From positions 4,280,735 to 4,344,734 of the forward strand of contig OZ241969.1 of NCBI GenBank assembly GCA_965204165.1: 64,000 nt of DNA, given 5' to 3'. The notes beneath the pieces were generated by a model. The model was given only the letters and a program-made list of their open reading frames with translations. It was not told the DNA's origin and searched no databases. Positions 1,030-48,619 of this stretch are shown here, piece by piece; within the stretch, counting starts at the first letter, position 1; each line of letters starts with the position of its first letter. Both the position numbers and the translations under genes were made by a program. This DNA is from Candidatus Poriferihabitaceae bacterium (lineage in GTDB: Bacteria; Pseudomonadota; Gammaproteobacteria; Arenicellales; Poriferihabitantaceae).

Positions 1030-1137
1030 GTAACTACTCACCCCTTATTTGCCCCATTATCCCCATCTGTAGGTTGACAGTATAGAATATTTTCCCTATC
1101 GTTCGGGTTTCGGACCACGAGACGAACCCGCACACAG

Positions 1138-1827: not shown

Positions 1828-1831
1828 ATCC

Positions 1832-2552
1832 ATGGGGACGGTGAACCGGGTTGCGCTGCGCGAGGAGTTCGATGCGCACCGGGAGAGTTTCCGGTCACTG
1901 TGCAGGGAGGGCAAGGTCAGCGCGGAATGCGAGGTGCTGTTCAACGCCCTGTTGATGCTGATGGAGTTGATGATGGCGGTGTTCATGGAAAAGACCACCC
2001 GCAAGACGCCGGTGAACGCGAGCCTGCCGCCGTCCCGTGAGGGGAAGGATGAGACCGCGGCACGCCCCGGGAGCCGTGGCAGGGGACCGGAGCAGCCGCA
2101 CTGGGAAACGGGCCATACCCGTCTGGTGAGTGAAACCGGGGTATCCCCGGTGACGGAATGTTCGGCCTGCGGCAGGAACCTGGTGCGGGTACGGTGCGAG
2201 GGCCATGAGCGTCGCACCCTGGTGGACATCGTGTTCGAGACCCGGGAATACCACGTGGATGCCGAGATCAAGACCTGTCCGCGCTGCCATGCCGAGAACC
2301 GGGGCGCCTTTCCGGACGGCCTGCCGGGTCCGCTGCAGTACGGACACGGCATCATCGCGTTCGCCGCCCACCTGATGGTGGCGCAGATGGTGCCGCTGAA
2401 GCGTGTGGTCCAGACCATGAAGGCGATGACGGGACGGGCCATTGCCGAGGCGACCCTGCTGGCCTGGCTGCTGCGCCTGCACGATGCCCTGGCGGACTGG
2501 GAGGCTGCCGCCGTCGAGTGCCTGCTGGCCGCGCCGGCGCTGCATGTGGACG
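1832..2552 (+). pseudogene. IS66-family transposase, N-terminal 240 codons, truncated by the IS4-like insertion
   Basis: Identical to residues 1-240 of the 485-aa ORF 25496..26953 up to ...APALHVD. It then diverges exactly where the IS4-like inverted repeat begins. Confidence 0.85.
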
Positions 2553-4172
2553 CAGCAATTCCCGCCATCATCTGTAGTCCAATAAAGACGTGGGTTTGAG
2601 GCGGTGCTGGGGGAAGGCGGTTCGCAGACTTTTCCTGAAAAGGCGGTATGATCCGTCTGATTTCACGATATCGGATGATCTGTCATGTCGAAAGCCGTGT
2701 TTCGCAAGACCCTGAGCGTTCCGGGTCTGCTTCGGGTGGTGCGTGGGCATTTTGATCGCATTGAGGATCCCATCGTGAGCCGGGGCCTGGCACTGACGGA
2801 CTGCCTGATGTCGGGGCTGGCGGTATTCGCGCTGAAGTACCCGTCGCTGCTGAGTTTCGAGCAGGACGCACGGGACGGGGGCCGGATCCGGTCGAACCTC
2901 AGGGAACTGTACGGGGTTGGCCGCGCGCCGTCGGACACGGCGATGCGCGAGCGCCTGGACCTGGTGGACCCGCGTGCGCTGCGGGGTGCCTTCAAGGGTG
3001 TGTTCGCGGCCCTTCAGCGTGGCAAGGGTCTGGAGGGTTTCACCTGGCTGGGCCATCATCTGCTGTCGGTGGACGGGACGGGGTACTTCTCGTCGAAGAG
3101 TGTGCATTGCGACCATTGCTGCGAGAAACATCACCGTGACGGCAGCACCACCTGGTACCACCAGATGCTGGGGGCGGTACTGGTCCACCCGGAGCACCGG
3201 GAGGTGTTCCCGCTGGCGCCGGAACCGATCATGCGTTCGGACGGTTCGCGGAAGAACGACTGCGAGCGCAACGCGGCGAAGCGTCTGCTGCGTGACGTCC
3301 GTCGCGAGCATCCGCACCTGAAGCTGCTGGTGGTGGAGGATGCGCTGGCGTCGAACGGGCCGCACATCCGGCTGCTGGGGGAACTGGACATGCGGTATGT
3401 CCTGGGCGTGAAGCCGGGGGACCATGGGGAACTGTTCCGCCGTGTCGAGGCCTCGGCGGCGACCCGTACCGTGGAGAGGTCGGAAGGGGGCGGCAGCCGT
3501 TTCCGGCTCCGGTTTCTGAACGGCGTACCGCTGAACCAGGCGAACCCCGATCTGGCAGTGAACTTCCTGGCGTGCCGGGAGACCCGCCCCGATGGCCGGG
3601 AACTGCACTTCTCCTGGGTCACGGACATGGAGGTCACGGAATCGAACGCGCATGACCTGATGCGGGCCGGACGCGCCCGTTGGCGCATCGAGAACGAGAC
3701 GTTCAACACCCTGAAGAACCAAGGCTACGGCTTCGAGCACAACTTTGGTCACGGCAAGCGGCATCTGGCGACGGTGTTCGCCCACCTGACGATGCTGGCG
3801 TTCCTCATCGACCAGGTGCAGCAGCGGTGCTGTGCGCTGTTCCGGGCGGCCCGGGAGAAGGCGGGCGGTTCGAAATACCTGTGGGTGCGGTTGCGCGGGC
3901 TGTTCACGGAGTTCTACATTCCGGACTGGGAGACCCTGTACCGGGCGATCGCGTTCGGGCACCGGAAGACGGAGTTGGTGCCCTTCGACACTTCCTGACC
4001 CGGCGGCCGTGTCCGAATATGCAACGGGCCGGTTCTTCGGAGAATCATGTGGCCAGCAGACAATCCGGCACACCGCCCGGAGGGGGTTCCCTCCCCGCGT
4101 AGTCGGGGAACAGGGGCTCAAACCATGAAATCCGCCGAATCCAATCCGTGATAGGATTAGCGGGAATTGCTG
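2553..4172 (+). mobile_element. IS4/ISAs1-superfamily insertion sequence (1,620 bp)
   Basis: 13-bp terminal inverted repeats: CAGCAATTCCCGC at 2553-2565 and its reverse complement at 4160-4172. It contains a single transposase ORF. No matching target duplication is present (left flank GTGGACG, right flank GGCATGG). Confidence 0.75.
2685..3998 (+). CDS. DDE transposase (IS4 superfamily, DDE_Tnp_1-type)
   Basis: 437 aa. The N-terminus HFDRIEDP...LTDCLMSGLAVFAL resembles the ISAs1/IS4 N-terminal domain. Other motifs are LSVDGTG, VVEDALASN and the C-terminal RARWRIENETFNTLKNQGY (YREK-type motif). Confidence 0.8.
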   Translation: MSKAVFRKTLSVPGLLRVVRGHFDRIEDPIVSRGLALTDCLMSGLAVFALKYPSLLSFEQDARDGGRIRSNLRELYGVGRAPSDTAMRERLDLVDPRALRGAFKGVFAALQRGKGLEGFTWLGHHLLSVDGTGYFSSKSVHCDHCCEKHHRDGSTTWYHQMLGAVLVHPEHREVFPLAPEPIMRSDGSRKNDCERNAAKRLLRDVRREHPHLKLLVVEDALASNGPHIRLLGELDMRYVLGVKPGDHGELFRRVEASAATRTVERSEGGGSRFRLRFLNGVPLNQANPDLAVNFLACRETRPDGRELHFSWVTDMEVTESNAHDLMRAGRARWRIENETFNTLKNQGYGFEHNFGHGKRHLATVFAHLTMLAFLIDQVQQRCCALFRAAREKAGGSKYLWVRLRGLFTEFYIPDWETLYRAIAFGHRKTELVPFDTS

Positions 4173-6891: not shown

Positions 6892-6981
6892 AAAAACCAC
6901 AGTCAGGCGGGAACCGGCAGGAGCAATACATGTGATGTCCAACAAGGCTGGCATCGCCGTCTATATCAGGTCAGGGATCAC

Positions 6982-7170
6982 TGATTTGTCTCTACTTTGG
7001 CAACACGCGGTTCCGGTAAAAATCCATGAGCATGCGCAGCCTTGCCCCGCCTCTCCTTGAACGCCCGCAAAAGCCGTAATCGAAATGGCGCTGTCGCACC
7101 TCCAACCCCAGGCGGCCGGGGCGCATGCCAGTCCGGTTTCACCGAGGCCGGCCGGCCCGCAAGTACTTCA
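6982..7170. repeat. imperfect direct repeat, copy A (degenerate gene-end fragment)
   Basis: Shares blocks TGATTTG, CCGGTAAAAATCCATGAGCATGCG, CAACCCCAGGC..CC..GGCGCATGC, TTCACCGAGG and AAG(G)TACTTCA with 15032..15197, in the same order and orientation. Confidence 0.6.
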
Positions 7171-7830: not shown

Positions 7831-7866
7831 GCGGACAAGGCGGACAAGGCGGACAAGGCGGACAAG
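7831..7866. repeat. 9-bp tandem repeat GCGGACAAG x4
   Basis: Four perfect consecutive units counted directly in the sequence. Confidence 0.9.
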
Positions 7867-7991: not shown

Positions 7992-8762
7992 TCACTGCGA
8001 GGATGCCGGCTGTCGCCGGTCAGTGCTCTGCTTGCCGGCAGGGCATGCGCCGACCTGCAGCGCCCCGTCGCATTCGTAGATGTTCTTGATATCCGACGCC
8101 TTGACCTGGATCGACGACTTCAGGTCGTTGGTCACCCTGCCGGCTCCGGCGAACTCAAGCCATGTGCGGCAGGTCGCGGTGACCTTGCACAGGCGCCCCT
8201 CGAACAGTTCCTGGATGGTCACATTGACCTTGTGCTGGATGTCGATGTCCCAGCAGTTGCGCCAGGTGACGAAGGGCGCCGTGTGCCAACTCGTGCCGAC
8301 GAGGCACGTGGCGTTGGCGGTCTGGTAGTTGTATTCCGTCAGCTTCGTGGTGACGTCGACGCTGTCGCGGGGGTGGGGCGGTTCCGGCGGCGGCGGAGGG
8401 GGCGGACATGCGTTGCGCACGAGATCCCCGTCGCAGTTCACGAGGGTACGCAGCTCGGCGGCCGTTCCCCGGTGGTGCGTGCTCTTCGTGCCCCCGTCGT
8501 CGGTCGTGCAGTCGGCGTTCACCGTGCACTTGCGGGTGAAGTCAACGCGCACGGTTCCCCGGGTCGTGCAGGTGCTGTACGCACCGCTGTTTTTCCATCC
8601 CGAGCGGCAATCGCTGGCCCAGGAGGAGTAGTAGGGATCGTCGGTCACGTCGGAAGAGTCACGGTCTTCTGGAAGTTCCGGATCCGCCGGCACGGACCCG
8701 GCCATGAGGCCCAGGACAAGCAGGGACGCCGCCTGTGCGAGGATGAACTTGACTGTCTTCAT
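7992..8762 (-). CDS. secreted cysteine-rich two-domain protein with poly-proline linker
   Basis: Internal ATG preceded by GGAGGG. Signal-peptide-like MKTVKFILAQAASLLVLGLMAGSVPA. 12 Cys arranged 6+6 around PPPPPPPEPP. Both halves end CDGxLxxxACP. Confidence 0.6.
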   Translation of the reverse strand: MKTVKFILAQAASLLVLGLMAGSVPADPELPEDRDSSDVTDDPYYSSWASDCRSGWKNSGAYSTCTTRGTVRVDFTRKCTVNADCTTDDGGTKSTHHRGTAAELRTLVNCDGDLVRNACPPPPPPPEPPHPRDSVDVTTKLTEYNYQTANATCLVGTSWHTAPFVTWRNCWDIDIQHKVNVTIQELFEGRLCKVTATCRTWLEFAGAGRVTNDLKSSIQVKASDIKNIYECDGALQVGACPAGKQSTDRRQPASSQ

Positions 8763-8967: not shown

Positions 8968-10155
8968 TCATCTCCCGCGCAGCGCGGCGACGGGATCGAG
9001 CCTCGCCGCCTGGTAGGCGGGGGAGAACCCGAACAGCACCCCGGCGGCGCCGGCAACGCCGACGCCGAGGCCCATGGCCCGGGTCGAGACCCCGAACGTC
9101 CAGCCGGTGAACTGGCAAATGCCCCAGGTCGCCGCGACCCCGGCCCCGATCCCGATGATTCCGCCGGCCGTCGACAGCATGACCGATTCGATCAGGAACT
9201 GGCTCTGGATGTCGGCGCGCCGCGCGCCGAGCGCGCGCCGGATGCCGATCTCAAGCCGCCGCTCGGTCACCGAGACCAGCATCACGTTCATCACCCCGAT
9301 CCCGCCGACGAAAAGCGAGATGCTGCCCACCGATCCCAGCAGCAGCGCGAACAGCCGGACCTGCTCGTACATGCGTTCGATCAACTCCTCGGCACTCTCC
9401 ACGCGGACGACGGGGCCGTCCGCCCCGCGCCGGAAGTAGGCGCCGATTTCCCTGGCCGCCGCGGCGTGGTGGGCGCCCTCGCTCATCCGCGCCGTGATGT
9501 CGCTGATGTCCGGCCAGGCGAATACCCGCTGCGCCGTCGTGATCGGGATGATGACGGCGCGGTCCGCATCGAAGCGCCGCATCCCCCGCGGGGTCCGCCG
9601 CAGCACGCCCACGACGGTGTAGACGGCGCCGTCGACCGTCACGGATTCGCCGACGGGGCGCTCCATGCCCGCCGCGCGCGCGGCCTGGGCAACCTCCGAG
9701 CCGATCACGCAGAAATACCGGCGGCGGTCGAGGTCCGATATGTGCCTGCCGGTTTCGAGCTGCAGCTTGTTGAGGTCCGCCAGGGCGGAGGTGGCGCCGA
9801 TGACGGACACCTCCACGGCCGCCTTGCCGGCCAGGGACGCCTGCCCGTGGGAGATCGCGTAAGGCGCCGCCCGGGCGATGCCCGGAAGCGCCGCCAGCCC
9901 CAGGGCGTCGTCCAGGGAGACGACGGAGCGGTCGCCCGCCCCGTCGCGCTGGCGCAGGGTCACGCTCAGGATGTCCGTGCCCAGTTCCCGGAACTTCGTC
10001 AGGGACTCGTCCCTGACGATGATCCCCACCGACATCATGGCGACCACCGAGCCGACGCCGACCGCGATGCCGATCAATGCGAGCAGGCTGCGCTGCCGGC
10101 CGGCGAGCAGGCTGCCCGCCGCCTCCTTCAGGTTCGCCCTGGCCAGCGCCGTCAT
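8968..10155 (-). CDS. MacB/LolC-type ABC transporter permease (FtsX fold)
   Basis: 395 aa. The N-terminal TM segment (LLALIGIAVGVGSVVAMMSVG), a large periplasmic segment and a C-terminal 3-TM FtsX-like region (RRLEIGIRRALGARRADI) are typical of the family. It overlaps the ATPase gene by 4 nt. Confidence 0.85.
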   Translation of the reverse strand: MTALARANLKEAAGSLLAGRQRSLLALIGIAVGVGSVVAMMSVGIIVRDESLTKFRELGTDILSVTLRQRDGAGDRSVVSLDDALGLAALPGIARAAPYAISHGQASLAGKAAVEVSVIGATSALADLNKLQLETGRHISDLDRRRYFCVIGSEVAQAARAAGMERPVGESVTVDGAVYTVVGVLRRTPRGMRRFDADRAVIIPITTAQRVFAWPDISDITARMSEGAHHAAAAREIGAYFRRGADGPVVRVESAEELIERMYEQVRLFALLLGSVGSISLFVGGIGVMNVMLVSVTERRLEIGIRRALGARRADIQSQFLIESVMLSTAGGIIGIGAGVAATWGICQFTGWTFGVSTRAMGLGVGVAGAAGVLFGFSPAYQAARLDPVAALRGR

Positions 10156-10886
10156 CCCGTCTCCGGCCGTCCCGTTTCCGGGGCGCCCGCCGCCTCGTCC
10201 AGCACGCCGTCGGCCATGCGGACATGCCGCGCGAACTGCCGCGCGACCTCCCGGTCGTGGGTGACGACGACGGCGGTCAGCCCCTCGGCCTCGTTCAGCC
10301 GGACGAACAGGTCCATGATCTCCCGGCCGGTTTCTGCGTCGAGCGCGCCGGTGGGCTCGTCGGCCAGCAGGATGTCCGGCTCCCCGACGAGCGCGCGGGC
10401 GATGGCGACGCGCTGCTGCTGGCCCCCCGACAGCTCGGCGGGGCGGTGATCCGCCCGGTCCCCCATGCCCAGCCTGTCCAGCATGTCCCGGGCCCGGCGG
10501 CGCATGCCCGCCGCTCCGGCGCCCCGGTATATCAGCGGAACGGCGACGTTTTCCCAGGCGGTCAGGCGCGGCAGAAGATTGAACGACTGGAATACGAAGC
10601 CGATGCTCGAATTGCGCAGGGACGACAGCTCGCTGTCGCTCATCCCGCCGGTGGCGCGCCCGTTCAGGAAGTAGGAGCCCGACGTCGGCCGGTCGAGAAG
10701 GCCGACGATGTTCATCAGCGTGGACTTGCCGCTGCCGGACGGCCCCATGATCGACACGAGATCGCCCCTGCGAACGTTGAGCCGGACCCCCCTGAGGATC
10801 TCCGTGGTAACCGGCCCGGTGACATAGCTCTTGCCGACATCCACAAGACCGAGCATGGCCGGCGCCGTTCCCGCTTCCCCGCCCAC
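10152..10886 (-). CDS. ABC transporter ATP-binding protein (MacB/LolD type)
   Basis: Walker A GPSGSGKST, signature LSGGQQQRVAIARAL, Walker B ILLADEPTGALD. The alternative start MLGLVDV lies 10 codons in. Confidence 0.9.
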   Translation of the reverse strand: MGGEAGTAPAMLGLVDVGKSYVTGPVTTEILRGVRLNVRRGDLVSIMGPSGSGKSTLMNIVGLLDRPTSGSYFLNGRATGGMSDSELSSLRNSSIGFVFQSFNLLPRLTAWENVAVPLIYRGAGAAGMRRRARDMLDRLGMGDRADHRPAELSGGQQQRVAIARALVGEPDILLADEPTGALDAETGREIMDLFVRLNEAEGLTAVVVTHDREVARQFARHVRMADGVLDEAAGAPETGRPETG

Positions 10887-10889
10887 GGC

Positions 10890-12734
10890 CTATCTCCTCG
10901 CCACCAGCACAATGTCACCGGCGGAGATTCCCTCGACGATCTCCACCGAATCCAGCGTGGTCATGCCGGCCACCACCTCGACCAGCCTGGTCTCGCCCGA
11001 TTCCCGATCCCTGACCAGGAGCCGGGGCCGCGGACCGGAAATGTCCACCGCCTCGACGGGAACCAGCAGCGCATCCGCCTTCTCGTAGACCACGACCTCG
11101 ATCCGGGCGGACATCCCGAGACGCAGCAGGCCCCGCTGCCGTTCCGTCAGGCGCTCCACCGCGGCCTCGACCTCGAAAGACGGCAGCCTGCGCTGGTCCG
11201 CGCGGGCGACGGCCTCCGAGGAAACGCGGACGACCCTGCCGTCCAGGGAAACGCCGGGAAAGGCGTCGCCGGTGATCCGCGACGGCTGGCCCGGGCGGAT
11301 GCGCGCGACGTCCACCTCGTCCACGTAACCCACCACCGTCAGCCCGTCGAGGTCGCCGATGGTCAGCAGGCGCCCTCCCTGCTCCACGGACGAACCCTTC
11401 GCCAGCCGGACGTCCCCTCCGCCCGGCCCGGCCCCTTCGCCGCGCGCCCGCTTCGGGTGCATCACCACCCCGGCGGCGGGCGCGGTCACCTCCGCCTGGC
11501 CCAGGGTCCGCTCGAGGCGCTCCAGACGGGCGCGCGCGTTGTCGAGCTCCAGCTCCGCCACCTCGCGCTCCTCCTCGCCCCTGGCCAGCACGGCCCGGAG
11601 GGTCTGTTCCGCCGACTCGTGATCGAGAAGCTGGCTGTCATATTCCCTCCTCGCGGCTTCGTGCTCCGATGCCGGGATGATGCCGCGCTCCAGGAGAAAG
11701 GCGGTTTCCGAGAGCCGGTTCTTTCGCGCCTCCAGGTGGATCCGGCTCCTGCTCACGGCCCGGCGCGCCCGCGACACCTCCACATTGCCGGACCAGCCCA
11801 CGGTCTCGTCGACCCGGTCGCGCGCCCTGATGTGGGCGACCCGCGCGTTGCGGTGGTCGATCCGGAGTTGCGCAACGTCCATCTCGACCAGCCGCTGACC
11901 CCTGACGACCCGTTCGCCGGGCTGGACAAGCACCTCCGCCACCTTCGCGGTGATCGGGCTGGTCACCTCGATTTCCCGCCTGGGCGCGATGCGTCCGATC
12001 ATCGATACCCGGACCGAAATCGGCTCCGGCTCGACCACCTGCGTGAAGAAATTCGACGGCCCGGACGGGGCCGGGCGGGAAACCGCGTCCCCGGGTCCGG
12101 TGTTCCAGAAATACAGCCCGAAGTACAGCCCGACCGAGACGAACACCACAACCGCCGCGACCGCCGCGATGGCACGGACGGTGCGGAATCTCCTCGAGGC
12201 CGTGCCCAGCCTGAGGTTCGTCTCTTCCAGGTGGCGGTAGGCTTCCCGAAGTTCGGCGTGCTTCGCCTCCATCTCCCTGGCCATGCGGAGCTCGCCCTCG
12301 CGCAGTTCCTTGACTTCCGTGATGTCGCTGAAGACCGCGACGACGCCGATCCTGACAATCTCGCCGCCGCGCCGCTCGGTCAGATACCTGGTCGCGAGGG
12401 ACAGCGACCGCTTGGCGCCCCCCGAACCCGCTTCGACCACCCGCTGATGGACCGCGGAGAAGTCGTGGACGGCATCGAGGATCGCATCGCTGAACTCGTC
12501 CATGTCCTCGTTCCGGGCGAGGACATCGGCGAACGTGCGCCCCACGACCGCCTCGCTGGACAGGCCCAGAATCTCCGCCGCCGCCGGGTTCAGACTCGTG
12601 ATGACCCCGCCGGTGTCAAGGGACAGCACCCCGCTCGCCACGGTGTCCAGCACGTTCCGGTAGATCGGATCGAACCCGGCCGGCAACTCCGCCCCGGGCA
12701 TGATCCGCTTCAGTTTCGTCCGCTCCTCGCTCAT
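10890..12734 (-). CDS. PAS-domain-fused HlyD/MacA-type periplasmic adaptor (membrane fusion protein)
   Basis: N-terminal PAS pattern: VLSLDTGGVITSLNPAAAEILGL...VGRTFADVL...VAVFSDITEVKELRE. This is followed by one TM segment (AIAAVAAVVVFVSVGLYFGLYFW), then a HlyD-like lipoyl/coiled-coil/beta-barrel sequence. Confidence 0.8.
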   Translation of the reverse strand: MSEERTKLKRIMPGAELPAGFDPIYRNVLDTVASGVLSLDTGGVITSLNPAAAEILGLSSEAVVGRTFADVLARNEDMDEFSDAILDAVHDFSAVHQRVVEAGSGGAKRSLSLATRYLTERRGGEIVRIGVVAVFSDITEVKELREGELRMAREMEAKHAELREAYRHLEETNLRLGTASRRFRTVRAIAAVAAVVVFVSVGLYFGLYFWNTGPGDAVSRPAPSGPSNFFTQVVEPEPISVRVSMIGRIAPRREIEVTSPITAKVAEVLVQPGERVVRGQRLVEMDVAQLRIDHRNARVAHIRARDRVDETVGWSGNVEVSRARRAVSRSRIHLEARKNRLSETAFLLERGIIPASEHEAARREYDSQLLDHESAEQTLRAVLARGEEEREVAELELDNARARLERLERTLGQAEVTAPAAGVVMHPKRARGEGAGPGGGDVRLAKGSSVEQGGRLLTIGDLDGLTVVGYVDEVDVARIRPGQPSRITGDAFPGVSLDGRVVRVSSEAVARADQRRLPSFEVEAAVERLTERQRGLLRLGMSARIEVVVYEKADALLVPVEAVDISGPRPRLLVRDRESGETRLVEVVAGMTTLDSVEIVEGISAGDIVLVARR

Positions 12735-14329
12735 CGGCCGGTCCCGCTTTCCGCCTCGACGATCCGGATGCCCCGGCTCTCCAGGGTCGTGCCCAGGACC
12801 CGGTCCAGCGATGCCAGTGCGCCGAGGTGGGAAATCGCCGCGTCCAGCTCCCCGTTCTCCGCCGCCACCAGGTCGTCCTCGAACTCCGCCAGGCGGAAAT
12901 TCGACGACAGCCCCACGCGAAGCTTCTCGCGCTCGATCTCCGTTTTCTCCTCCGCCAGCTCCCGGACCGAGCGCGCCAGCTCGATCTGCCGCTCCGACCG
13001 TTCCACTTCCCGAACCGCGCCGCTCACCTCGATGTCGACCCGCTGGCGCAGGTCCATGAGATCGTTGTGCGCCTTCCTCAGGCCGATCGCCGCCTCGAGA
13101 TGCTTCTTCTCCCCGGGATCCACCGCCGCGGGCCCCAGCGGAACCTTGAGTTCCAGCCTCACGCCGTAGTCGGTGTTCCGGAATCGCCCCGCCGCCGCGA
13201 AAACGTCATCGCCGGCATGGCCGAAGCTTGCCGTCACGGACGCGGACAGATCCCAGAGACGCTCGTTCCCGGCCACCATGACGCGGCTTTCCGCGTTCCG
13301 CACGCCAAGCAGCGCCCGCAGGTAATCCGGGCGGTTCCGCAGGGCCGCCCCGACCCCGCCGGCCGCGTCAGGCCGTTTCGATTCCGGCCTGTCCAGGAGG
13401 TCGGCAAGCCTGTCGGCGGGGCGAAACCGGGTTCCTTCGTCGATGTCGAGGATGTCGGCCATCGCAAGGCGCGCGGCGTCAAGGGCGTTGCGCGTCGCGA
13501 TCAGCTCCAGCTCCCGCTTCGCGATGTCGGCCTCGGTCTGCACGATGTCGCGTCTCGCCATGCGGCCCGTCCGCACCAGTTCCTCATTCACCGCAAGGAG
13601 GTCCCGGGCGCGGCGCAGCGACTCGGCATGGATCTCCACCCGGCGCGCCGCCTGCATGTGGGCAAGGTATCTCCCGATCACCGAGGAGACGATGTCGATC
13701 ATCGCCTGCTTCAGCGCGAGAACGTTGGATTCCTCCGTGCGGCGGGCGATCTCTACCGGCGCACTGTTGACCCCGATGCCCGCCCCGCGCAGCAGCGGCT
13801 GCCTGAACGTGAACCGCAACTCGCCGGAATAGCGTTCGGACGACGGGACGCCGTCACCGGCGCCCCCGACGCTCCACCGCACGCCGAACGCTCCACCGGT
13901 GCGCACGGGCAGCGTGACCGACGTCGACACGCCGGCCCTGGTGACGTCGGCGCCCGGATCGATGCCGGTCCGCTCGGCATACGGGCCGACCGTGACATGC
14001 GGGCGGAACCGGTTTTCGGAAACCCGGAGGGAAAACCGCTGGACCTCGCGGTCCAGCCGCGCATTGACCAGCCGGCGGTTGTTCTTCAGGGCGAATGAAA
14101 TGGCCCCCTCGAGAGTGAGGCGAAGATCCCCGCGCGCCCCGGGCCCGTTCCCGAGCGCCTGGCCGGACACCGTGAGCGCGACTGCGAATATCGCCAGGCC
14201 GGCGGCGGAAAGGGATCGGGCGGTCCATCGCCGAGGGGCTCCGGCCGGGCCGGCCGGGCCGGCCGGGCCTCCCGCGCCAGCGTGCCCGGCATTGGCGCCT
14301 TGCGGGCGCGCCGCGCCGGCGGCGTTCAT
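12731..14329 (-). CDS. TolC-family outer-membrane efflux protein; start uncertain, since the ORF stays open through the 8-bp repeat up to ATG 14593
   Basis: OEP-type sequence: LTLEGAISFALKNNRRLVNARLD... with two repeat halves. The signal-like segment SLSAAGLAIFAVALTVSGQALG lies about 40 aa after ATG 14329. Confidence 0.8.
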   Translation of the reverse strand: MNAAGAARPQGANAGHAGAGGPAGPAGPAGAPRRWTARSLSAAGLAIFAVALTVSGQALGNGPGARGDLRLTLEGAISFALKNNRRLVNARLDREVQRFSLRVSENRFRPHVTVGPYAERTGIDPGADVTRAGVSTSVTLPVRTGGAFGVRWSVGGAGDGVPSSERYSGELRFTFRQPLLRGAGIGVNSAPVEIARRTEESNVLALKQAMIDIVSSVIGRYLAHMQAARRVEIHAESLRRARDLLAVNEELVRTGRMARRDIVQTEADIAKRELELIATRNALDAARLAMADILDIDEGTRFRPADRLADLLDRPESKRPDAAGGVGAALRNRPDYLRALLGVRNAESRVMVAGNERLWDLSASVTASFGHAGDDVFAAAGRFRNTDYGVRLELKVPLGPAAVDPGEKKHLEAAIGLRKAHNDLMDLRQRVDIEVSGAVREVERSERQIELARSVRELAEEKTEIEREKLRVGLSSNFRLAEFEDDLVAAENGELDAAISHLGALASLDRVLGTTLESRGIRIVEAESGTGR

Positions 14330-14351
14330 CCGGGGGCGCACACGCGCGATT

Positions 14352-14560
14352 CCGCTGGGCCGCTGGGCCGCTGGGCCGCTGGGCCGCTGGGCCGCTGGGC
14401 CGCTGGGCCGCTGGGCCGCTGGGCCGCTGGGCCGCTGGGCCGCTGGGCCGCTGGGCCGCTGGGCCGCTGGGCCGCTGGGCCGCTGGGCCGCTGGGCCGCT
14501 GGGCCGCTGGGCCGCTGGGCCGCTGGGCCGCTGGGCCGCTGGGCCGCTGGGCCGCTGGGC
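14352..14560. repeat. 8-bp microsatellite CCGCTGGG x26
   Basis: Perfect tandem units counted directly (209 nt). All three minus-strand frames read (AAQRPSGP)n without stops, as shown by ORFs 12731..14593, 13854..14792 and 14326..14562. Confidence 0.95.
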
Positions 14561-15031
14561 AAGGCATTCTATCGGCTCCGTCCGACCTGTCAACTCCCTC
14601 CCGTGACCTTATTCTTCCCTTATCCGGGACGGCGGAATCCACCGGCATGACCAGGGCATTACCGGCCATCGAAGCCGGGTATCGTGCGCCTTCCACTTCC
14701 ATTCCCGGGCTTTTGCCTGGTGCAGTGTGGCTCGACATTTCCGATTCTCCGGGTTGGTGGATCCAGGCGTCTCCGCGGACATCGGCACCCACGTTCGCAT
14801 CCCCGTAACCGCCTTATGCAGCCGGACGCCGGAAGCGCCGCTCCCGCGAACCCATGGCGGCGACGGGACGGCACTGTCCGTCATGCCGGAACATAACCGA
14901 ATGATTGTGAGTTAATTGTGTTTGTTCTGACCCGGATAGTGAGGATTTGGGGCGGCGAAAACCGGCGGCAGCAATCCAGCCGATGGTCTGCAGGGCCGGC
15001 GCCGGCGTCAATGTCGGGCCGGGGGAATCGG

Positions 15032-15197
15032 TGATTTGACTCACATGATCCCGGTAAAAATCCATGAGCATGCGTATCCTTGCCGAGCCAGTCCTCGAAC
15101 TCCCGCATGACCCTAATCCGTGTCTGTGGAACTTACAACCCCAGGCAGCCAGGGCGCATGCTACACTCGATTCACCGAGGTCAGCCAAGGTACTTCA
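15032..15197. repeat. imperfect direct repeat, copy B (degenerate gene-end fragment with stops)
   Basis: Same conserved blocks as 6982..7170. Minus-strand frames give ...IRVMREFEDWLGKDTHAHGFLP here, against ...LRLLRAFKERRGKAAHAHGFLP in copy A. Confidence 0.6.
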
Positions 15198-15208
15198 TGA
15201 ATTTGGAG

Positions 15209-15245
15209 CCCCCCCGCCGGTGAACACCACGGGGGGATTTTTTTC
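15209..15245 (+). terminator. intrinsic-terminator-like hairpin plus T-tract
   Basis: CCCCCCGCCGGTGAACACCACGGGGGG followed by ATTTTTTT. Confidence 0.5.
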
Positions 15246-15284
15246 CGGGATTCCTTCTTTATCCCGAACGCTCTGCCCTTCCGG

Positions 15285-15303
15285 TATAATCGCGCCCGCC
15301 CCG
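15285..15303 (+). promoter_or_regulatory. conserved box 1: TATAAT followed by CGCGCCCGCCCC
   Basis: One of four same-strand copies of a -10-like hexamer followed by a CGCCCGCCC-type G+C-rich block. Confidence 0.3.
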
Positions 15304-15327
15304 GATCGTCTCCCGGGGTGGTTTTTA
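15299..15327 (+). terminator. hairpin CCCCGG-N8-CCGGGG plus TGGTTTTT
   Basis: 6-bp G/C stem and a T5 run, read directly. It overlaps the G+C block of box 1. Confidence 0.4.
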
Positions 15328-15345
15328 TCCTGATTCAAATTACCG

Positions 15346-15380
15346 CCCCGCAGGCAACCTCGCTTCGCGGGGTGTTTTTG
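15346..15380 (+). terminator. hairpin CCCCGC-N15-GCGGGG plus TGTTTTT
   Basis: Read directly from the sequence. Confidence 0.5.
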
Positions 15381-15440
15381 TGTTCCCTCTCGCCGTTCGT
15401 TTTTCCGTTTTTCCGGCCGCGGCAGGAACTGCCGGGGTTC

Positions 15441-15461
15441 TGGTAGAATCCGCCCGCGCCC
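15441..15461 (+). promoter_or_regulatory. conserved box 2: TGGTAGAAT (extended -10-like) followed by CCGCCCGCGCCC
   Basis: TGnTAnAAT followed by a G+C-rich block, 159 bp downstream of box 1. Confidence 0.3.
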
Positions 15462-15590
15462 GGCCTGCCGTCAGCCCTTTCTCCGAGGGACCACGGGGCG
15501 GCAGTGTCCGGGCGCACGGCGGCAGTGTGCAGGCCGTGCGCACAGGAAATCACCGGCCCGGCTGTTCTCCATCATCTCCATCGGCCCTCG

Positions 15591-15612
15591 TGATAGACTC
15601 CGCCCGCCCTCC
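15591..15612 (+). promoter_or_regulatory. conserved box 3: TGATAGACT followed by CCGCCCGCCCTCC
   Basis: Same motif, 150 bp downstream of box 2. Confidence 0.3.
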
Positions 15613-15675
15613 AGAGGGCGATACCTGAAATGAGATTTGGATATACCCGCCGGGCAACCCCGGCGGGGCTTTTTC
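15606..15675 (+). ncRNA. candidate ~70-nt small RNA (box 3 to terminator)
   Basis: Bounded by promoter-like box 3 and the hairpin CCCGCCGGG-CAA-CCCGGCGGG plus GCTTTTT. No ORF. Purely structural inference. Confidence 0.2.
15646..15675 (+). terminator. 9-bp G/C hairpin plus T-tract
   Basis: CCCGCCGGGCAACCCGGCGGGGCTTTTT, read directly. Confidence 0.55.
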
Positions 15676-15712
15676 CAGTCTTTTTCCGGCCTTTTTCCGG
15701 CCTTTTTCCGTG
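15669..15712. repeat. 11-bp tandem repeat CTTTTTCCGGC x4 (outer units variant)
   Basis: CTTTTTCCAGT CTTTTTCCGGC CTTTTTCCGGC CTTTTTCCGTG, giving T5 tracts phased at 11 bp. Confidence 0.85.
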
Positions 15713-15806
15713 CATGTTCCGATCCGCGCCGCACGGGCCAGAATCGCGGGCATCCATCCCATCGTCCGATACCGGGGCAAACCAAGCCCCATGGTGGCCA
15801 TGGGCG

Positions 15807-15828
15807 TGTTACACTCGGCCCGCCCCGG
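15807..15828 (+). promoter_or_regulatory. conserved box 4: TGTTACACT followed by CGGCCCGCCCC
   Basis: Same motif class as boxes 1-3. Confidence 0.3.
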
Positions 15829-15916
15829 TCATCGGCCAGGGTACGATTTCATTGGTATGCGGAATTGGTATGCGGAATTGAAGACCTCCGTCGGAAGGCC
15901 GTCGGGGGTCTTTTCT
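15822..15916 (+). ncRNA. candidate ~95-nt small RNA (box 4 to terminator), containing a 13-bp tandem repeat
   Basis: Bounded by box 4 and the hairpin at 15883-15910 plus TTTTCT. It contains ATTGGTATGCGGA x2.3 (15851-15880). Inference only. Confidence 0.2.
15883..15916 (+). terminator. 12-bp imperfect hairpin plus T-tract
   Basis: GACCTCCGTCGG-AAGG-CCGTCGGGGGTC followed by TTTTCT. Confidence 0.55.
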
Positions 15917-16579
15917 GCTGTATCGGCCGGATCCTCCCGGCGATACCGGTGGAATCCACCGCGCCGGAGCGGGACATTCCCGGCCGTACGCCATACCGTT
16001 TTCAGGGACCCTCCATGGAAATTCTCTTCGCCGTTCCCTTCGCCCTGCTCTGGGGGATTCTCCAGGAAGCCAGGCACCTGTTGCTGACCCATTATCCCGG
16101 CGACGTCCCGCCGCCTCCCCTCGACCATGTCACCCAGGACGACGTCTGGGCCTGGGAAGTGGCGATCTTCGACCGGATGCTGGCACGGCCCGCGGCGGAA
16201 CACATCATCTTCTCCCTGAGGTAGTGCGCCGCGGGCGGGAGGCCCGTCTCCGGCGATCGCGGCGGACTCCGCCAGCCCCTCGGGGGCTGCCCTTGCGGGG
16301 CATCATGGAACAGTGGGCCGGGCCCGGATGGTGAGCGGACGCGGCATGATGTCCCGCGGCGCTGCCGGCCCATGCTCCGCGGCCATGTCCATGGCAATGC
16401 CCGCCTGAATTTCCCACCTGCGCCATCAAGCACGGCCCGGTCATGAACCAAAAAAAGTTCGTGGATCGGCCGGAAGCGGGTTGGCGCGCGGGGGACCGGA
16501 GAGAGAATCCTCCGGTCTTCTCTCCATCCCGTGCGCTTCCCGCTTCCGATTTTCCATCCCCAGCAGGAGGTTCATCACC

Positions 16580-16912: not shown

Positions 16913-17935
16913 GTGGCATACCGTGACATCGAGCAGGGACGCAAAAAGAACAGGGAACGGTTCCAGCAACGCATGGCGGAGAGGAAAGCCGCCGGATTGT
17001 GTTTGATGTGCGGCGTCGTCCCCCCGGTGCCCGGCCGCACGAACTGCGAGCCCTGTTCTGAGAAGCGACGCGCGCGCGAGAAGGAGCGGAGCGCCAGGCT
17101 AAAGGCCGAGGGAAAACCCCGGCGCGATCCGGTCAAGGCCCGCGAAGCCGGACGGCGGCACTACCGCAAGAAGGTCGAAACACGGATCGCCGCCGGACTT
17201 TGTCCTCGCTGCGGCACCGCCACACCCGCTTCCGGCCGGAGGCTCTGCGACGGCTGCAACGAACAGACCCGGGAACTTTCCCGGGCGAGATACGCCAGGG
17301 GCAAGGCGCTGGGGAAGCCATACGGCGGTCGGCCGGCCGAGTCACGCCGGCGGTCCGCCAGGGTCCGCAGCGAGCGCAAGCGGTTCGCCTGGGTCGCTGC
17401 CGGCAAGTGCTCGCGCTGTGGCAAGGCCGAACCCGCCGAAGGCGGGTCCACGTGCACCCCATGCAGGACCAGGAGGCAGGAGCGTGAACGGGCGAAATAC
17501 GCCAAAAGGCGGTCTACGGGATGTTGTGTCCGTTGCGGTGCCGCCTCGACCTTCGACGGCGCCGCCCTTTGCTTCACCTGCGCCGCCGTGGAGGCGGACA
17601 GCGGGCGGCAGGAACGGAAGAACGCCGCTTCCAGACGGCGCTACATGGAAAGGCGCCGGGCCGGGATTTGTACCGATTGCGGAGCTCCCAGCAATGGAGC
17701 ATCGCGCTGTGTTCCCTGCGCAGAAAGAAGTTACACCCGCTCCGCCCACTTCCGCGGGATGCCCGCCTGGGAACCCGAATACACCGTGGTGGACCTGGAC
17801 ACCGGGGAAGAGCACGGGCCTTTCGACAGCCGGGCCGACGCGGACGCCGGCGCCGCGTTTCTCAAGCTCCGGCAGGGACGGTTCGAGGTCGTCGCCGAGA
17901 ACCACCCGCTGGCGGGGTCGGTCGGATGGGCGTGA
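16913..17935 (+). CDS. basic protein with five tandem CxxC-x(8-11)-CxxC zinc-ribbon modules
   Basis: The five repeats are GLCLMCG..NCEPC, GLCPRCG..LCDGC, GKCSRCG..TCTPC, GCCVRCG..LCFTC and GICTDCG..RCVPC. Each is followed by an Arg/Lys-rich segment ending in RY or KY. GTG start. Confidence 0.6.
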   Translation: MAYRDIEQGRKKNRERFQQRMAERKAAGLCLMCGVVPPVPGRTNCEPCSEKRRAREKERSARLKAEGKPRRDPVKAREAGRRHYRKKVETRIAAGLCPRCGTATPASGRRLCDGCNEQTRELSRARYARGKALGKPYGGRPAESRRRSARVRSERKRFAWVAAGKCSRCGKAEPAEGGSTCTPCRTRRQERERAKYAKRRSTGCCVRCGAASTFDGAALCFTCAAVEADSGRQERKNAASRRRYMERRRAGICTDCGAPSNGASRCVPCAERSYTRSAHFRGMPAWEPEYTVVDLDTGEEHGPFDSRADADAGAAFLKLRQGRFEVVAENHPLAGSVGWA

Positions 17936-18457
17936 TTGCCCTCCACCGCACTCCGTAGCCGGCCGGGGGGCGGGGGCCGCACATGCCGACGGCCCGGTGA
18001 AGCCGGGTCCGGAATCGGGGTTGGCGACCGCTCCCGGCCCGGGGTCGTATTCCCTGCGGCGGAAGCGCCCACTGTGCGCGGACGCCCTCTTCACCCACCC
18101 GAACGGGATTCGGACGCGGGAGCGGTCGGCGCCGAGCATACCACGCCTGCCACGGGATGGTGCGGTGCCTTTCCGCCTCGCTGCGCAGCCGGCCGGCCGG
18201 CAGCCGTTCGGCTGGGCGAACAGGCCGGACTGGTCGGCCACGCCCGCGCCGGCATGCCTCGCGAAGGAGTCCGGGACAGCGCATTGGCCGACACCGCCCG
18301 CCTGCCCCGCCGGGTCCGGACACGGGAATGGCCGGCCCGGAGCATGGCACGCGTTCCGGGATCGCGGCGGCGCCCCCGCTGCGCAGCCGGCCGCCGGCCC
18401 GACGACGCCTGCCGATGAAAGCCGGCGCGGGGGGATCGGCCGCCGACGGCACCGGCA

Positions 18458-18490
18458 GAACCCGGAAGAACCCGGAAGAACCCGGAAGAA
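18458..18490. repeat. 10-bp tandem repeat GAACCCGGAA x3.3
   Basis: Counted directly in the sequence. Confidence 0.85.
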
Positions 18491-19233: not shown

Positions 19234-19683
19234 ATGCCTTTCGGACTCAACAAGGCCTCATTGATCGGCCGCATCGGACAGGACGTCACCGTCAACCACC
19301 TCGCGTCCGGCGGACGCGTCGCCAACCTCAGCATCGCCACCGACGAGTCCTACATCCGGGACGGCGAGCGGGTCGACCGCACGGAATGGCACCGCCTGGT
19401 CACCTTCCAGGACGGCCTCATCACCATGCTGGAGAAGCACGCGAAGAAGGGCCGCCTGGTCTACGTCGACGGCAAGCTCCAGACCCGCCGCTGGCGCAAG
19501 GACGGCGAGGACGCCGACCGGTTCTCCACGGAGATCATGCTCGTGCCCGGTTCCAGGATTCAGTTCCTGGACAGGCCCGGCGCCAAGGCGCAGCCCGCCG
19601 AGGCCCCGGCGGACGCACCGGCCGCTCCCCAGGGCGGCGTTCGGGAGAACATGACGGATTTCGATGAGCCGATCCCGTTTTAA
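19234..19683 (+). CDS. ssb: single-stranded DNA-binding protein
   Basis: OB-fold pattern: NKASLIGRIGQDV...TEWHRLVTF...GRLVYVDGKLQTRRWRKDGED. It has a Gly/Pro/Ala-rich tail and an acidic tip DFDEPIPF. AGGAGG RBS. Confidence 0.9.
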   Translation: MPFGLNKASLIGRIGQDVTVNHLASGGRVANLSIATDESYIRDGERVDRTEWHRLVTFQDGLITMLEKHAKKGRLVYVDGKLQTRRWRKDGEDADRFSTEIMLVPGSRIQFLDRPGAKAQPAEAPADAPAAPQGGVRENMTDFDEPIPF

Positions 19684-26953: not shown

Positions 26954-26957
26954 GGAT

Positions 26958-27647: not shown

Positions 27648-27763
27648 CTGTGTGCGGGTTCGTCTCGTGGTCCGAAACCCGAACGATAGGGAAAATATTC
27701 TATACTGTCAACCTACAGATGGGGATAATGGGGCAAATAAGGGGTGAGTAGTTACGATGAAAG

Positions 27764-48532: not shown

Positions 48533-48619
48533 GCCGAGGTGGCGAAACTGGTAGACGCGTCAGACTCAAAATCTGATTGGGGCAACTCAGTGTCGGTTCG
48601 AGTCCGACCCTCGGCACCA
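48533..48619 (+). tRNA. tRNA-Leu (anticodon CAA), long variable arm, encoded CCA
   Basis: Acceptor GCCGAGG/CCTCGGC, D-arm GGCGAAACTGGTAGACGC, anticodon loop CTCAAAA, T-arm GGTTCGAGTCC, 3' ACCA. Confidence 0.9.

What the first reader, a model, noticed from the sequence alone, without database searches (positions are those of the whole stretch)
14330..14593. 26-copy 8-bp microsatellite at the 5' end of the TolC-exporter operon: candidate phase-variation switch
CCGCTGGG is repeated 26 times without interruption (14352-14560), immediately upstream of the first plausible TolC start (ATG 14329). The unit is 8 bp, so each gain or loss shifts the frame. All three sense frames through the tract are stop-free and encode the same cyclic peptide (AAQRPSGP)n. 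With 26 units, an upstream ATG (14593) is in frame and would add an ~88-aa repeat extension in front of the signal-like segment. With 25 or 27 units it would not. The tract also sets the distance between any upstream promoter and the operon. This is the classic configuration of slipped-strand contingency loci. It is unusual for a G+C-rich octamer, and unusual for controlling a four-gene efflux operon.
Basis: partly seen in the sequence, partly recalled or inferred. Interest (0 to 1): 0.65.

Follow-up and report, generated by a model that had tools for sequence, protein, structure and literature searches.

The report
Promoter-linked octamer repeat before exporter operon
A perfect 26-copy 8-bp repeat lies between a near-consensus promoter and the start codon of a TolC-type exporter operon, and the same promoter-plus-repeat unit precedes secreted adhesin-like genes in sponge-associated bacteria of several phyla, so it looks like a shared, length-variable expression leader rather than a frame-shift switch.

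Summary
The repeat is real: (CCGCTGGG)26, perfect, at window 14352-14559, 22 nt upstream of the TolC-family start codon (ATG 14329, minus strand).

It is the first three bases of TTGACA-N16-TAGAAT, the only sigma-70 match of at least 11/12 on either strand of the 64 kb window. That promoter ends 6 nt before the tract. The tract is therefore predicted to be the transcribed 5' leader. It is neither coding nor a -35/-10 spacer.

The same arrangement (TTGACA/TATAAT, then 2-6 nt, then (CCCAGCGG)n with n = 2-46, then ATG) recurs in more than 40 loci from MAGs and sponge metagenomes. Mb-scale contigs carrying it are labelled Binatia, Alphaproteobacteria and Gammaproteobacteria. The genes behind it encode secreted fn3, Calx-beta, cadherin-like or RTX proteins, mostly with one conserved signal leader.

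Copy number differs between 97-99% identical paralogs (32 vs 44, 19 vs 8, 20 vs 9). TolC orthologs at 71-74% identity have no tract.

Best reading: a horizontally shared promoter-repeat cassette whose slippage-prone leader tunes expression, like hmw1A in Haemophilus. Switching itself is untested. The short-read copy numbers at this locus (7, 10) appear to be assembly collapses.

The parts
14588..14593 (-). -35 hexamer TTGACA.
   Evidence: Promoter scan, 11/12 match. It is the only match of at least 11/12 on either strand of the whole window. It is identical in strain contig L124.
14566..14571 (-). -10 hexamer TAGAAT. A 16-nt spacer lies upstream of it and 6 nt (gccttg) separate it from the first repeat unit.
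   Evidence: In related module loci the -10 (TATAAT, CATAAT or TACAAT) ends 2-6 nt before the array.
14352..14560 (-). Simple-sequence repeat. The sense (mRNA-like) strand reads (CCCAGCGG)26 and the template strand reads (CCGCTGGG)26. It is the predicted transcribed 5' leader, with the inferred transcription start near 14559.
   Evidence: The transcription start is inferred from the -10 position and has not been mapped.
14330..14351 (-). 22-nt spacer between tract and start codon (AATCGCGCGTGTGCGCCCCCGG). It has no Shine-Dalgarno motif and is polymorphic among 99%-identical strains. It resembles the ACGTGCGCCCGG motif that follows the ATG in adhesin-type module loci.
   Evidence: three sequence variants among four strains.
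12731..14329 (-). TolC-family outer-membrane channel gene (532 aa), starting at ATG 14329.
   Evidence: Pfam OEP, E = 2.8e-29. An identical 532-aa protein, P0123, is on record. The GTG at 14341 is not conserved.
14241..14269 (-). In-frame 9-bp repeat CCGGCCGGG (codes PAG) in the N-terminal region of the TolC-family protein. The window has 3.2 copies.
   Evidence: There is one copy fewer in 99%-identical strains (P0001, P0121, L144).
10890..12734 (-). Membrane-fusion protein (HlyD family) with an N-terminal PAS domain.
10152..10886 (-). ABC ATPase.
8968..10155 (-). MacB-type permease (MacB_PCD plus FtsX domains).
7992..8762 (-). Possible fifth gene: a 256-aa cysteine-rich protein with a signal peptide and no Pfam match.
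   Evidence: It is called as a gene downstream of the permease in L124.

Best explanation
The tract is the transcribed 5' leader of the exporter operon and part of a horizontally shared expression cassette: a sigma-70-type promoter followed by (CCCAGCGG)n.

Proposed mechanism:
1. RNA polymerase starts at or within the first repeat unit (inferred from the -10 position).
2. The mRNA therefore carries about 208 nt of pure repeat, then 22 nt, then the start codon, with no Shine-Dalgarno sequence.
3. Slipped-strand mispairing adds or removes 8-bp units. This changes leader length, not reading frame or -35/-10 spacing.
4. Expression of the TolC / PAS-HlyD / ABC / MacB-type operon is thereby tuned in steps or switched low and high, as in the H. 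influenzae hmw1A/hmw2A heptamer leader.

What is shown: the tract, the promoter match and its position, the recurrence of the cassette, copy-number differences between paralogs, and the absence of the tract from more distant orthologs.

What is inferred: the transcription start, the effect of length on expression, and the rate and reversibility of length change.
For: - Perfect 26-unit array.
- The promoter TTGACA-N16-TAGAAT ends 6 nt upstream of the tract, points toward the operon, and is the only match of at least 11/12 in 128 kb of scanned strand.
- The same anatomy occurs in more than 40 loci. The -10 box ends 2-6 nt before the array, and a conserved ATG (TTG or CTG in two loci) follows 1-9 nt after it.
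- n mod 3 is unconstrained.
- Downstream genes encode secreted or surface proteins with fn3, Calx-beta, cadherin-like, autotransporter or RTX domains.
- One Binatia MAG carries at least 14 arrays.
- Paralog pairs that are 97-99% identical differ in copy number: 32 vs 44, 19 vs 8, and 20 vs 9.
- Every array is perfect or nearly so and uses the identical unit, whereas the promoter spacers differ. This points to ongoing turnover or homogenisation.
- Orthologous operons at 71-74% protein identity lack any tract.
- The operon lies in a region rich in IS elements and conjugation genes.
- A documented precedent exists for a transcribed simple-sequence-repeat leader acting as an expression rheostat (PMC12721329).
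Against: - There is no transcription-start or expression data.
- No valid copy-number polymorphism is available at this locus. The 7 and 10 copies in short-read contigs L124 and L001 equal the minimal collapse lengths for k = 55 and k = 77. A third contig, L144, breaks with exactly 54 nt of tract.
- Short arrays are identical in different metagenomes (n = 6/6 and 3/3).
- Duplicates that are 99-99.9% identical share the same copy number (n = 9/9 and 12/12). Instability is therefore not extreme, at least for short arrays.
- The exact unit is conserved across phyla, which hints at a sequence-specific role beyond length.
- Promoter spacing varies between loci (15-16 nt or 20-21 nt), so some of these promoters may not behave as canonical sigma-70 sites.
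Confidence: 0.5

Rival explanations
1. The array has a fixed, sequence-specific cis role and copy-number change is incidental. Possible roles are a platform bound by a conserved protein or RNA, a comparatively unstructured GC-rich leader that allows translation without a Shine-Dalgarno sequence, or a template-strand G-quadruplex that impedes RNA polymerase.
For: - The exact octamer is conserved across phyla while the promoter spacers and leader peptides diverge.
- The sense-strand repeat is less structured than shuffles of the same composition (RNA z = +4.5; DNA z = +3.2).
- The unit ranks third least structured of the 35 octamer necklaces with the same composition.
- The template strand matches the G3-N5 quadruplex pattern 23 times.
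Against: - No binding factor is known.
- The G4Hunter score is only 0.62, below the commonly used threshold of about 1.2 (the threshold is from my own knowledge).
- Copy numbers from 2 to 46 are tolerated in front of intact genes, so no particular length or dose appears to be required.
- A rank of 3 out of 35 is weak evidence.
Confidence: 0.2
2. The tract is a neutral by-product: a slippage-prone sequence that travels with a mobile promoter and leader cassette and expands without any regulatory consequence.
For: - The longest arrays (44 and 32 units) lie upstream of degenerate leaders with no intact adhesin ORF.
- The tract was acquired recently at this locus.
- The surrounding region is rich in mobile-element genes.
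Against: - Placement is strict, between the -10 box and the ATG, in dozens of loci across phyla.
- Long perfect arrays (n = 26-38; 46 units in three blocks in L073) persist in front of intact, long genes.
- A GC-rich insertion of more than 200 nt between promoter and start codon is unlikely to leave expression unchanged (inference).
Confidence: 0.2
3. One reading: a translational frame-shift switch. With 26 units an upstream start at 14593 is in frame and adds an ~88-aa (AAQRPSGP)n extension; with 25 or 27 units it is out of frame.
For: The ORF 12731-14593 is open and in frame, and no sense frame through the tract contains a stop. Gene callers elsewhere have extended ORFs through such arrays (P0118, P0119).
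Against: - 14593 is TTG and forms part of the -35 hexamer, so the promoter would lie inside the proposed coding region.
- In the wider family there is no conserved start upstream of the array, n mod 3 is unconstrained, and a conserved ATG follows the array directly.
- In GC-rich DNA, stop-free frames are expected by chance.
Confidence: 0.03
4. The tract is an assembly artefact.
For: Long perfect repeats are error-prone in assemblies, and copy numbers differ between assemblies (26, 10, 7).
Against: Three independent metagenome assemblies of 99%-identical strains contain the array at the same site with the same flanks. Dozens of other loci, including ones on Mb-scale contigs, carry the same array type.
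Confidence: 0.01

Closest known systems
Haemophilus influenzae hmw1A/hmw2A heptamer repeat (ATCTTTC)n in the 5' UTR (PMC12721329; PMC8262952)
   Same: A tandem repeat of unit length not divisible by 3 lies between promoter and start codon, is transcribed as part of the leader, and controls a secreted adhesin operon. Expression falls as copy number rises (rheostat). It occurs at paralogous loci.
   Different: - The unit here is a GC-rich octamer rather than an AT-rich heptamer.
- Here the array begins essentially at the predicted transcription start and, in adhesin-type loci, abuts the ATG.
- No downstream complementary arm comparable to the hmw hairpin was found. The tract RNA mainly pairs weakly with itself.
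- RNase III dependence is unknown.
- The cassette is shared across phyla rather than confined to one species.
Moraxella catarrhalis uspA2 (AGAT)n repeat in the 5' UTR (own knowledge, not checked here)
   Same: A repeat between the transcription start and the start codon of an outer-membrane protein gene, whose number modulates expression level.
   Different: A tetranucleotide, in a single species, with far fewer units.
Classical intragenic or promoter-spacer contingency loci: Neisseria opa CTCTT in the leader-peptide coding region; poly-G/C between -35 and -10 of porA, opc and fetA (own knowledge; general reviews PMC11868660, PMC11475388)
   Same: Perfect simple-sequence repeats at the 5' ends of surface-protein genes, many loci per genome sharing one unit, in host-associated bacteria.
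   Different: The array here is neither inside the ORF nor between the -35 and -10 boxes, so neither the frame-shift mechanism nor the spacing mechanism applies.
Mycoplasma variable surface lipoprotein families (vlp, vsp, vsa) with a conserved 5' cassette (own knowledge)
   Same: A conserved promoter plus signal-peptide leader is fused to divergent mature domains in a multigene family, and a repeat in the 5' region provides variation.
   Different: Those cassettes are confined to one genus, use homopolymer tracts or site-specific inversion, and encode lipoproteins.
GC-rich variable-number tandem repeats in Mycobacterium tuberculosis and Burkholderia pseudomallei (PMC12817950; PMC1853098)
   Same: Tandem repeats with units longer than 6 bp in high-GC genomes that vary in copy number.
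   Different: Those are locus-specific units, not one unit coupled to a promoter and reused at many loci and across phyla.

Membership tests
Simple-sequence-repeat contingency (phase-variable) locus, general | Long, perfect tandem repeat of a short unit | tested here: met
   26.1 copies, 100% identity; 25 matches against 0.23 expected.
Simple-sequence-repeat contingency (phase-variable) locus, general | The repeat lies where a length change can alter expression (ORF, promoter or 5' UTR) | tested here: met
   It lies between the predicted -10 box and the start codon. The effect on expression was not measured.
Simple-sequence-repeat contingency (phase-variable) locus, general | Copy number varies within populations or between close strains | tested here: inconclusive
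   The window has 26 copies. 99%-identical short-read contigs show 7 and 10 copies, and one breaks after 54 nt of tract; these values fit k-mer collapse. Paralogs in a long-contig (2.4 Mb) Binatia MAG differ (32/44, 19/8, 20/9), but 99-99.9% identical duplicates do not.
Simple-sequence-repeat contingency (phase-variable) locus, general | High-frequency, reversible ON/OFF or graded switching of the phenotype | not testable with these tools
   This needs reads, reporters or culture.
Simple-sequence-repeat contingency (phase-variable) locus, general | The controlled gene encodes a surface, secreted or host-interaction function, and several loci share the unit | tested here: met
   TolC-type exporter here; fn3, Calx-beta, cadherin-like, autotransporter or RTX proteins elsewhere; at least 14 arrays in one MAG.
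Translational (frame-shift) repeat switch | The repeat lies inside the ORF, downstream of the functional start codon | tested here: not met
   The proposed start is TTG inside the -35 hexamer. A conserved ATG lies downstream of the array, and n mod 3 is free in the family.
Promoter-spacer repeat switch | The repeat lies between the -35 and -10 hexamers (or between a promoter and an upstream activator site) | tested here: not met
   The array is downstream of the -10 box, and the 16-nt spacer contains no repeat.
hmw-type transcribed 5' UTR repeat rheostat | The repeat is transcribed as part of the 5' UTR | tested here: inconclusive
   Predicted from the promoter position. No transcription-start data.
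hmw-type transcribed 5' UTR repeat rheostat | The repeat arm pairs with a downstream complementary region into a long hairpin processed by RNase III | tested here: not met
   The minimum-free-energy fold pairs the tract with itself, with many alternative registers, and is less stable than shuffles (z = +4.5). The hairpin over the start codon is no more stable than shuffles (z = 0.05). RNase III involvement was not tested.
Rfam RNA families | Match to a curated covariance model | tested here: not met
   The only match in the window is a tRNA at 48533-48616.

The most novel reading that the evidence does not exclude
The promoter-(CCCAGCGG)n unit, usually joined to a conserved secretion leader (MTCARR...LLLPVLALLLGALGLFAAAPAQAQ), is an expression cassette exchanged between phyla of sponge-associated bacteria. 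It places surface adhesin-like proteins, and here a TolC-type exporter on a mobile-element-rich region, under a common hypermutable or otherwise repeat-dependent control. That would amount to a community-level shared contingency system. The exact conservation of the octamer across phyla would then reflect a sequence-specific function, not only length.
Probability: 0.35. Interest if true: 0.85.

Novelty: new variant of a known kind. Interest (0 to 1): 0.72.

Why it matters
Repeat-based expression switching is known almost only from small-genome pathogens, within single species, and mostly with units of 1-7 bp.

Here a GC-rich octamer array is fused to a near-consensus promoter. It recurs in front of secreted, eukaryote-like adhesin genes in Alphaproteobacteria, Gammaproteobacteria and Binatia on Mb-scale contigs. 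It also appears on short contigs binned as Chloroflexota and Gemmatimonadota, where the binning is less certain. Many of these genomes and metagenomes come from sponges.

If functional, it would be the first candidate for stochastic surface variation in sponge symbionts, and an example of a regulatory cassette spread by horizontal transfer across phyla. It also gives a concrete sequence handle for testing how symbionts vary their host-facing proteins.

There is a practical consequence too. Gene callers run ORFs through these arrays and create false AAQRPSGP-repeat N-termini, and short-read assemblers collapse the arrays or break at them.

Tried and rejected
- **Exact-protein look-ups** of the window's PAS-HlyD protein, its ABC ATPase and P0123 found nothing.
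- **Copy number from strain contigs** L001, L124 and L144 was rejected as evidence. The values 56 and 80 nt, and a 54-nt contig edge, fit de Bruijn collapse at k = 55 and k = 77.
- **A protein search with (AAQRPSGP)12** returned only 13 weak, mostly unrelated hits.
- **A viral-contig scan** gave two 3-copy background hits, so there is no evidence for a phage vector.
- **A metagenome scan anchored on the window's flank** gave no hits.
- **Start-codon hairpin in the window:** no more stable than shuffles (z = 0.05).
- **Conserved palindrome after the ATG in adhesin loci:** conserved, but without covariation (covariation term 0.06).
- **Template-strand G-quadruplex:** matches the pattern, but G4Hunter is 0.62.
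- **Adhesin-type leader in the window:** none found by tblastn.
- **Literature:** no paper in the library contains the octamer dimer or the leader peptide motifs.

Full report
**1. Observation**

The window holds a perfect tandem array of the octamer CCGCTGGG at 14352-14560. Tandem Repeats Finder reports period 8, 26.1 copies, 100% matches and no indels. A two-unit probe found 25 matches against 0.23 expected by chance, all within the tract.

The genes lie on the minus strand, where the unit reads CCCAGCGG. Pfam identifies four consecutive genes:
- 12731-14329: outer-membrane efflux protein of the TolC family (OEP).
- 10890-12734: HlyD-type membrane-fusion protein with an N-terminal PAS domain.
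- 10152-10886: ABC ATPase.
- 8968-10155: MacB_PCD/FtsX permease.

A possible fifth gene (7992-8762) encodes a 256-aa cysteine-rich protein with a signal peptide. ATG 14329 lies 22 nt beyond the tract. All three sense frames through the tract are open and give the same cyclic peptide, AAQRPSGP.

One stated detail is wrong. The codon at 14593 is TTG, not ATG.

**2. What lies upstream**

The consensus scan found one sigma-70-type site in 13800-16000, on the minus strand at 14593-14566: TTGACA, a 16-nt spacer, then TAGAAT, an 11/12 match. My own scan of both strands of the whole window found no other site with at least 11/12 matches at spacers of 16-18 nt.

This site points toward the operon and ends 6 nt before the first repeat unit. 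By the usual spacing, transcription should start about 7 nt after the -10 box, at or in the first repeat unit near 14559. That step is inference.

On this reading the tract is a 5' leader. It is not coding sequence and not a -35/-10 spacer. An in-frame GTG at 14341 is mutated to GCG in 99%-identical strains, which leaves ATG 14329 as the start. No Shine-Dalgarno motif precedes that ATG.

**3. Related sequences: the same locus**

Three ENA metagenome contigs from one study (NGUY21-1) carry the operon at 99.1% nucleotide identity.
- L124 has the identical promoter and seven units, spanned by unique sequence on both sides.
- L001 starts 3 nt upstream of ten units.
- L144 starts with exactly 54 nt of tract.

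The values 54, 56 and 80 nt are what de Bruijn assembly gives for an unresolvable period-8 repeat: k-1 at a contig break, and the smallest multiple of 8 that is at least k-1 at a collapse, for k = 55 and k = 77. I therefore do not treat them as true copy numbers. There is no valid length comparison for this locus.

Two real differences between these strains are:
- One unit fewer of an in-frame 9-bp repeat (14241-14269, PAG) in the TolC N-terminal region.
- Three variants of the 22-nt spacer among four strains.

Orthologous four-gene operons at 71-74% protein identity have no octamer array anywhere in the fetched DNA (L127, L128-L131, L132-L133). Their N-termini also differ upstream of the PRRW motif. 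The promoter, the tract and the remodelled 5' end of the gene are therefore recent acquisitions in this lineage.

**4. Related sequences: the same cassette elsewhere**

The homology search turned up two unrelated proteins whose called N-termini are (AAQRPSGP)n (P0118, P0119). In their DNA, TTGACA and a -10-like box lie directly before 29 and 21 units. The array abuts an ATG, as ...CCCAGCGG C ATG.

They fall into two classes:
- **Background:** short, imperfect arrays in Actinomycetota and others, with no promoter match.
- **Module loci:** TTGACA, then 15-16 or 20-21 nt, then TATAAT, CATAAT or TACAAT, then 2-6 nt, then the array. The longest perfect run is 44 units; L073 carries 46 units in three blocks.

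A second scan, of metagenomes, added nine more module loci.

Where the module occurs:
- On Mb-scale contigs labelled Binatia (CBDBFB01, at least 14 arrays; OZ241976), Gammaproteobacteria (CBDBDW01, CBDBDH01, Arenicellales OZ241837) and Alphaproteobacteria (OZ219866).
- On short contigs binned as Chloroflexota, Dehalococcoidia, Gemmatimonadota, Rhodospirillales, Defluviicoccus and Paracoccaceae/Boseongicola. Binning of the 1.6-2.2 kb contigs (the Chloroflexota, Dehalococcoidia and Gemmatimonadota ones) is less certain.
- The APA_, IRC_ and SB06xx bins and the MKWU01 contigs come from the sponges Aplysina aerophoba and Ircinia ramosa (PMC11706023, PMC5649159).
- The origin of the UUID-named MAGs was not verified here.

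The window's own GlyA protein is closest to proteins labelled Arenicellales and Candidatus Spongiihabitans.

**5. What the cassette drives**

In most module loci the ATG after the array opens a long ORF. It begins with a conserved leader, M-(T/N/R/K)-CARR...RxGRxRARLS-LLLPVLALLLGALGLFAAAPAQAQ. Divergent mature parts follow, with fn3, Calx-beta, cadherin-like, SWM-repeat or autotransporter domains. One locus drives an RTX-type protein with GGxGxD repeats.

Across these loci n mod 3 takes the values 0, 1 and 2. No start codon is conserved upstream of the array. This excludes a frame-dependent role for the array.

The window is the unusual case. The cassette precedes an exporter operon, and only a remnant (GTGTGCGCCCCCGG) resembles the ACGTGCGCCCGG motif that follows the ATG elsewhere. 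No adhesin-type leader is present in the window.

**6. Is the array unstable?**

For instability:
- Every array is perfect or nearly so, with the identical unit, while the promoter spacers differ.
- In the Binatia MAG (a 2.4-Mb contig), paralogous segments 97-99% identical differ in copy number: 32 vs 44, 19 vs 8, and 20 vs 9.

Against very fast change:
- Duplicates 99-99.9% identical share the same n (9/9 and 12/12).
- The same locus in different metagenomes shares the same n (6/6 and 3/3).

Copy number is evolutionarily labile. Its rate of change, and whether change is reversible, are unknown.

**7. Structure**

- The tract RNA folds only into a weak hairpin with many alternative registers. 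It is less stable than shuffles (z = +4.5).
- The sense DNA strand behaves the same way (z = +3.2). The G-rich strand is ordinary (z = 0.5).
- The unit ranks third least structured of the 35 octamer necklaces with the same composition. This is suggestive only.
- The hairpin over the window's start codon is no more stable than shuffles (z = 0.05).
- The palindrome after the ATG in adhesin loci is conserved but shows no covariation.
- The template strand fits the G3-N5 quadruplex pattern, but its G4Hunter score is 0.62.
- Rfam matches nothing in this region.

**8. Context**

- Two 100%-identical inverted IS66 copies (1030-2552 and 26233-27755) flank 23.7 kb that includes the operon.
- IS110-family and DDE transposase genes, an SSB gene, a TrwC relaxase gene (33063-36032) and a type IV coupling protein gene (36026-38410) lie nearby, together with low-GC islands.
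- A ~250-bp direct repeat, 69% identical, brackets the operon at 6906-7153 and 14954-15186.

This setting fits horizontal acquisition of the operon region.

**9. Interpretation**

The best-supported reading is a transcribed, slippage-prone repeat leader inside a horizontally shared promoter cassette, which tunes expression by its length. The closest documented system is the hmw1A/hmw2A heptamer leader of H. influenzae (PMC12721329).

It is not a member of that system in the strict sense. No complementary downstream arm or long hairpin was found. It also fails the defining features of frame-shift switches and of promoter-spacer switches.

Two rivals remain open: a sequence-specific fixed role, suggested by the exact unit conservation across phyla, and a neutral hitch-hiking repeat.

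No paper in the searchable library contains the repeat or the leader motifs.

**10. Verdict**

- "Phase-variation switch" is partly supported as a concept, but the specific frame-shift mechanism is rejected.
- The unexpected result is the cassette shared across phyla. I rate it a new variant of a known kind, with interest 0.72.

Noticed in passing
window 14241-14269: An in-frame 9-bp repeat, CCGGCCGGG (PAG), in the N-terminal region of the TolC-family protein. The window has 3.2 copies, and 99%-identical strains (P0001, P0121, L144) have one fewer. This is a genuine small repeat-number difference next to the octamer tract.
   Followed up: partly
window 14330-14351: The 22-nt spacer between tract and ATG has three sequence variants among four strains that are 99.1% identical overall. 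This is locally elevated divergence in a CG/GT-rich stretch.
   Followed up: partly
window 1030-2552 and 26233-27755: Two 1523-nt inverted copies of an IS66-family element, 100% identical, flank a 23.7-kb segment that contains the exporter operon. The left copy's transposase is cut short next to another DDE transposase gene (2685-3998). The arrangement could form a composite transposon or an invertible segment.
   Followed up: partly
window 33063-38410; 19234-19683; 612-1004: A TrwC relaxase, a TrwB-type coupling protein, an SSB and an IS110-family transposase fragment. The region looks like an integrated conjugative element or a plasmid remnant. Low-GC islands (39-47% against about 65%) lie at roughly 22.5-25.5, 28-33 and 38-41 kb.
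   Followed up: partly
window 6906-7153 and 14954-15186: A direct repeat of about 250 bp (69% identical, with a 66-nt core at 82%) brackets the promoter, tract, operon and fifth ORF. It has no obvious coding role and may mark cassette boundaries.
   Followed up: no
window 7992-8762 (minus strand): A 256-aa cysteine-rich protein with a signal peptide, a poly-proline stretch and no Pfam match lies directly downstream of the MacB-type permease. It is conserved in strain contig L124 and may be cargo of the pump or an accessory protein.
   Followed up: no
window 10890-12734 (minus strand): The membrane-fusion protein carries an N-terminal PAS domain. The same architecture is present in all orthologous operons fetched (L124, L127-L133). 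This seems unusual for a tripartite pump adaptor (own impression, not checked).
   Followed up: no
window 15398-15880, 18452-18490, 7831-7866, 36072-36100: Several other short perfect tandem repeats lie in the island: 11-bp x3.8, 13-bp x2.3, 10-bp x3.9, 9-bp x4 and 9-bp x3.2. Some sit in the apparently non-coding stretch upstream of the promoter.
   Followed up: no
L050 2020-2067; L002, L027, L046, L047, L073, L092: Promoter geometry varies between module loci. The TTGACA-to-TATAAT spacing is 15-16 nt in some and 20-21 nt in others. L050 shows a 15-bp tandem duplication inside the spacer that creates a second -10 box.
   Followed up: partly
L115 (n=44), L088 (n=32), L057 (n=26), L065, L067, L092, L140/L143: Some module loci lack the ATG after the array (CTG, or nothing, in its place) or have a degenerate leader. 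The two longest perfect arrays lie before such degenerate leaders. L057 drives an RTX-type protein 269 nt downstream of the array.
   Followed up: partly
P0118, P0119 (L002, L003): Public gene calls run through the arrays and yield false N-terminal (AAQRPSGP)n extensions. In L002 the called start is the ATG contained in TATAATG of the -10 box.
   Followed up: yes
window 16913-17935: A 340-aa ORF rich in CxxC pairs, with a weak double zinc-ribbon match below the Pfam cut-off. It lies upstream of and divergent from the operon. Its function is unknown.
   Followed up: no
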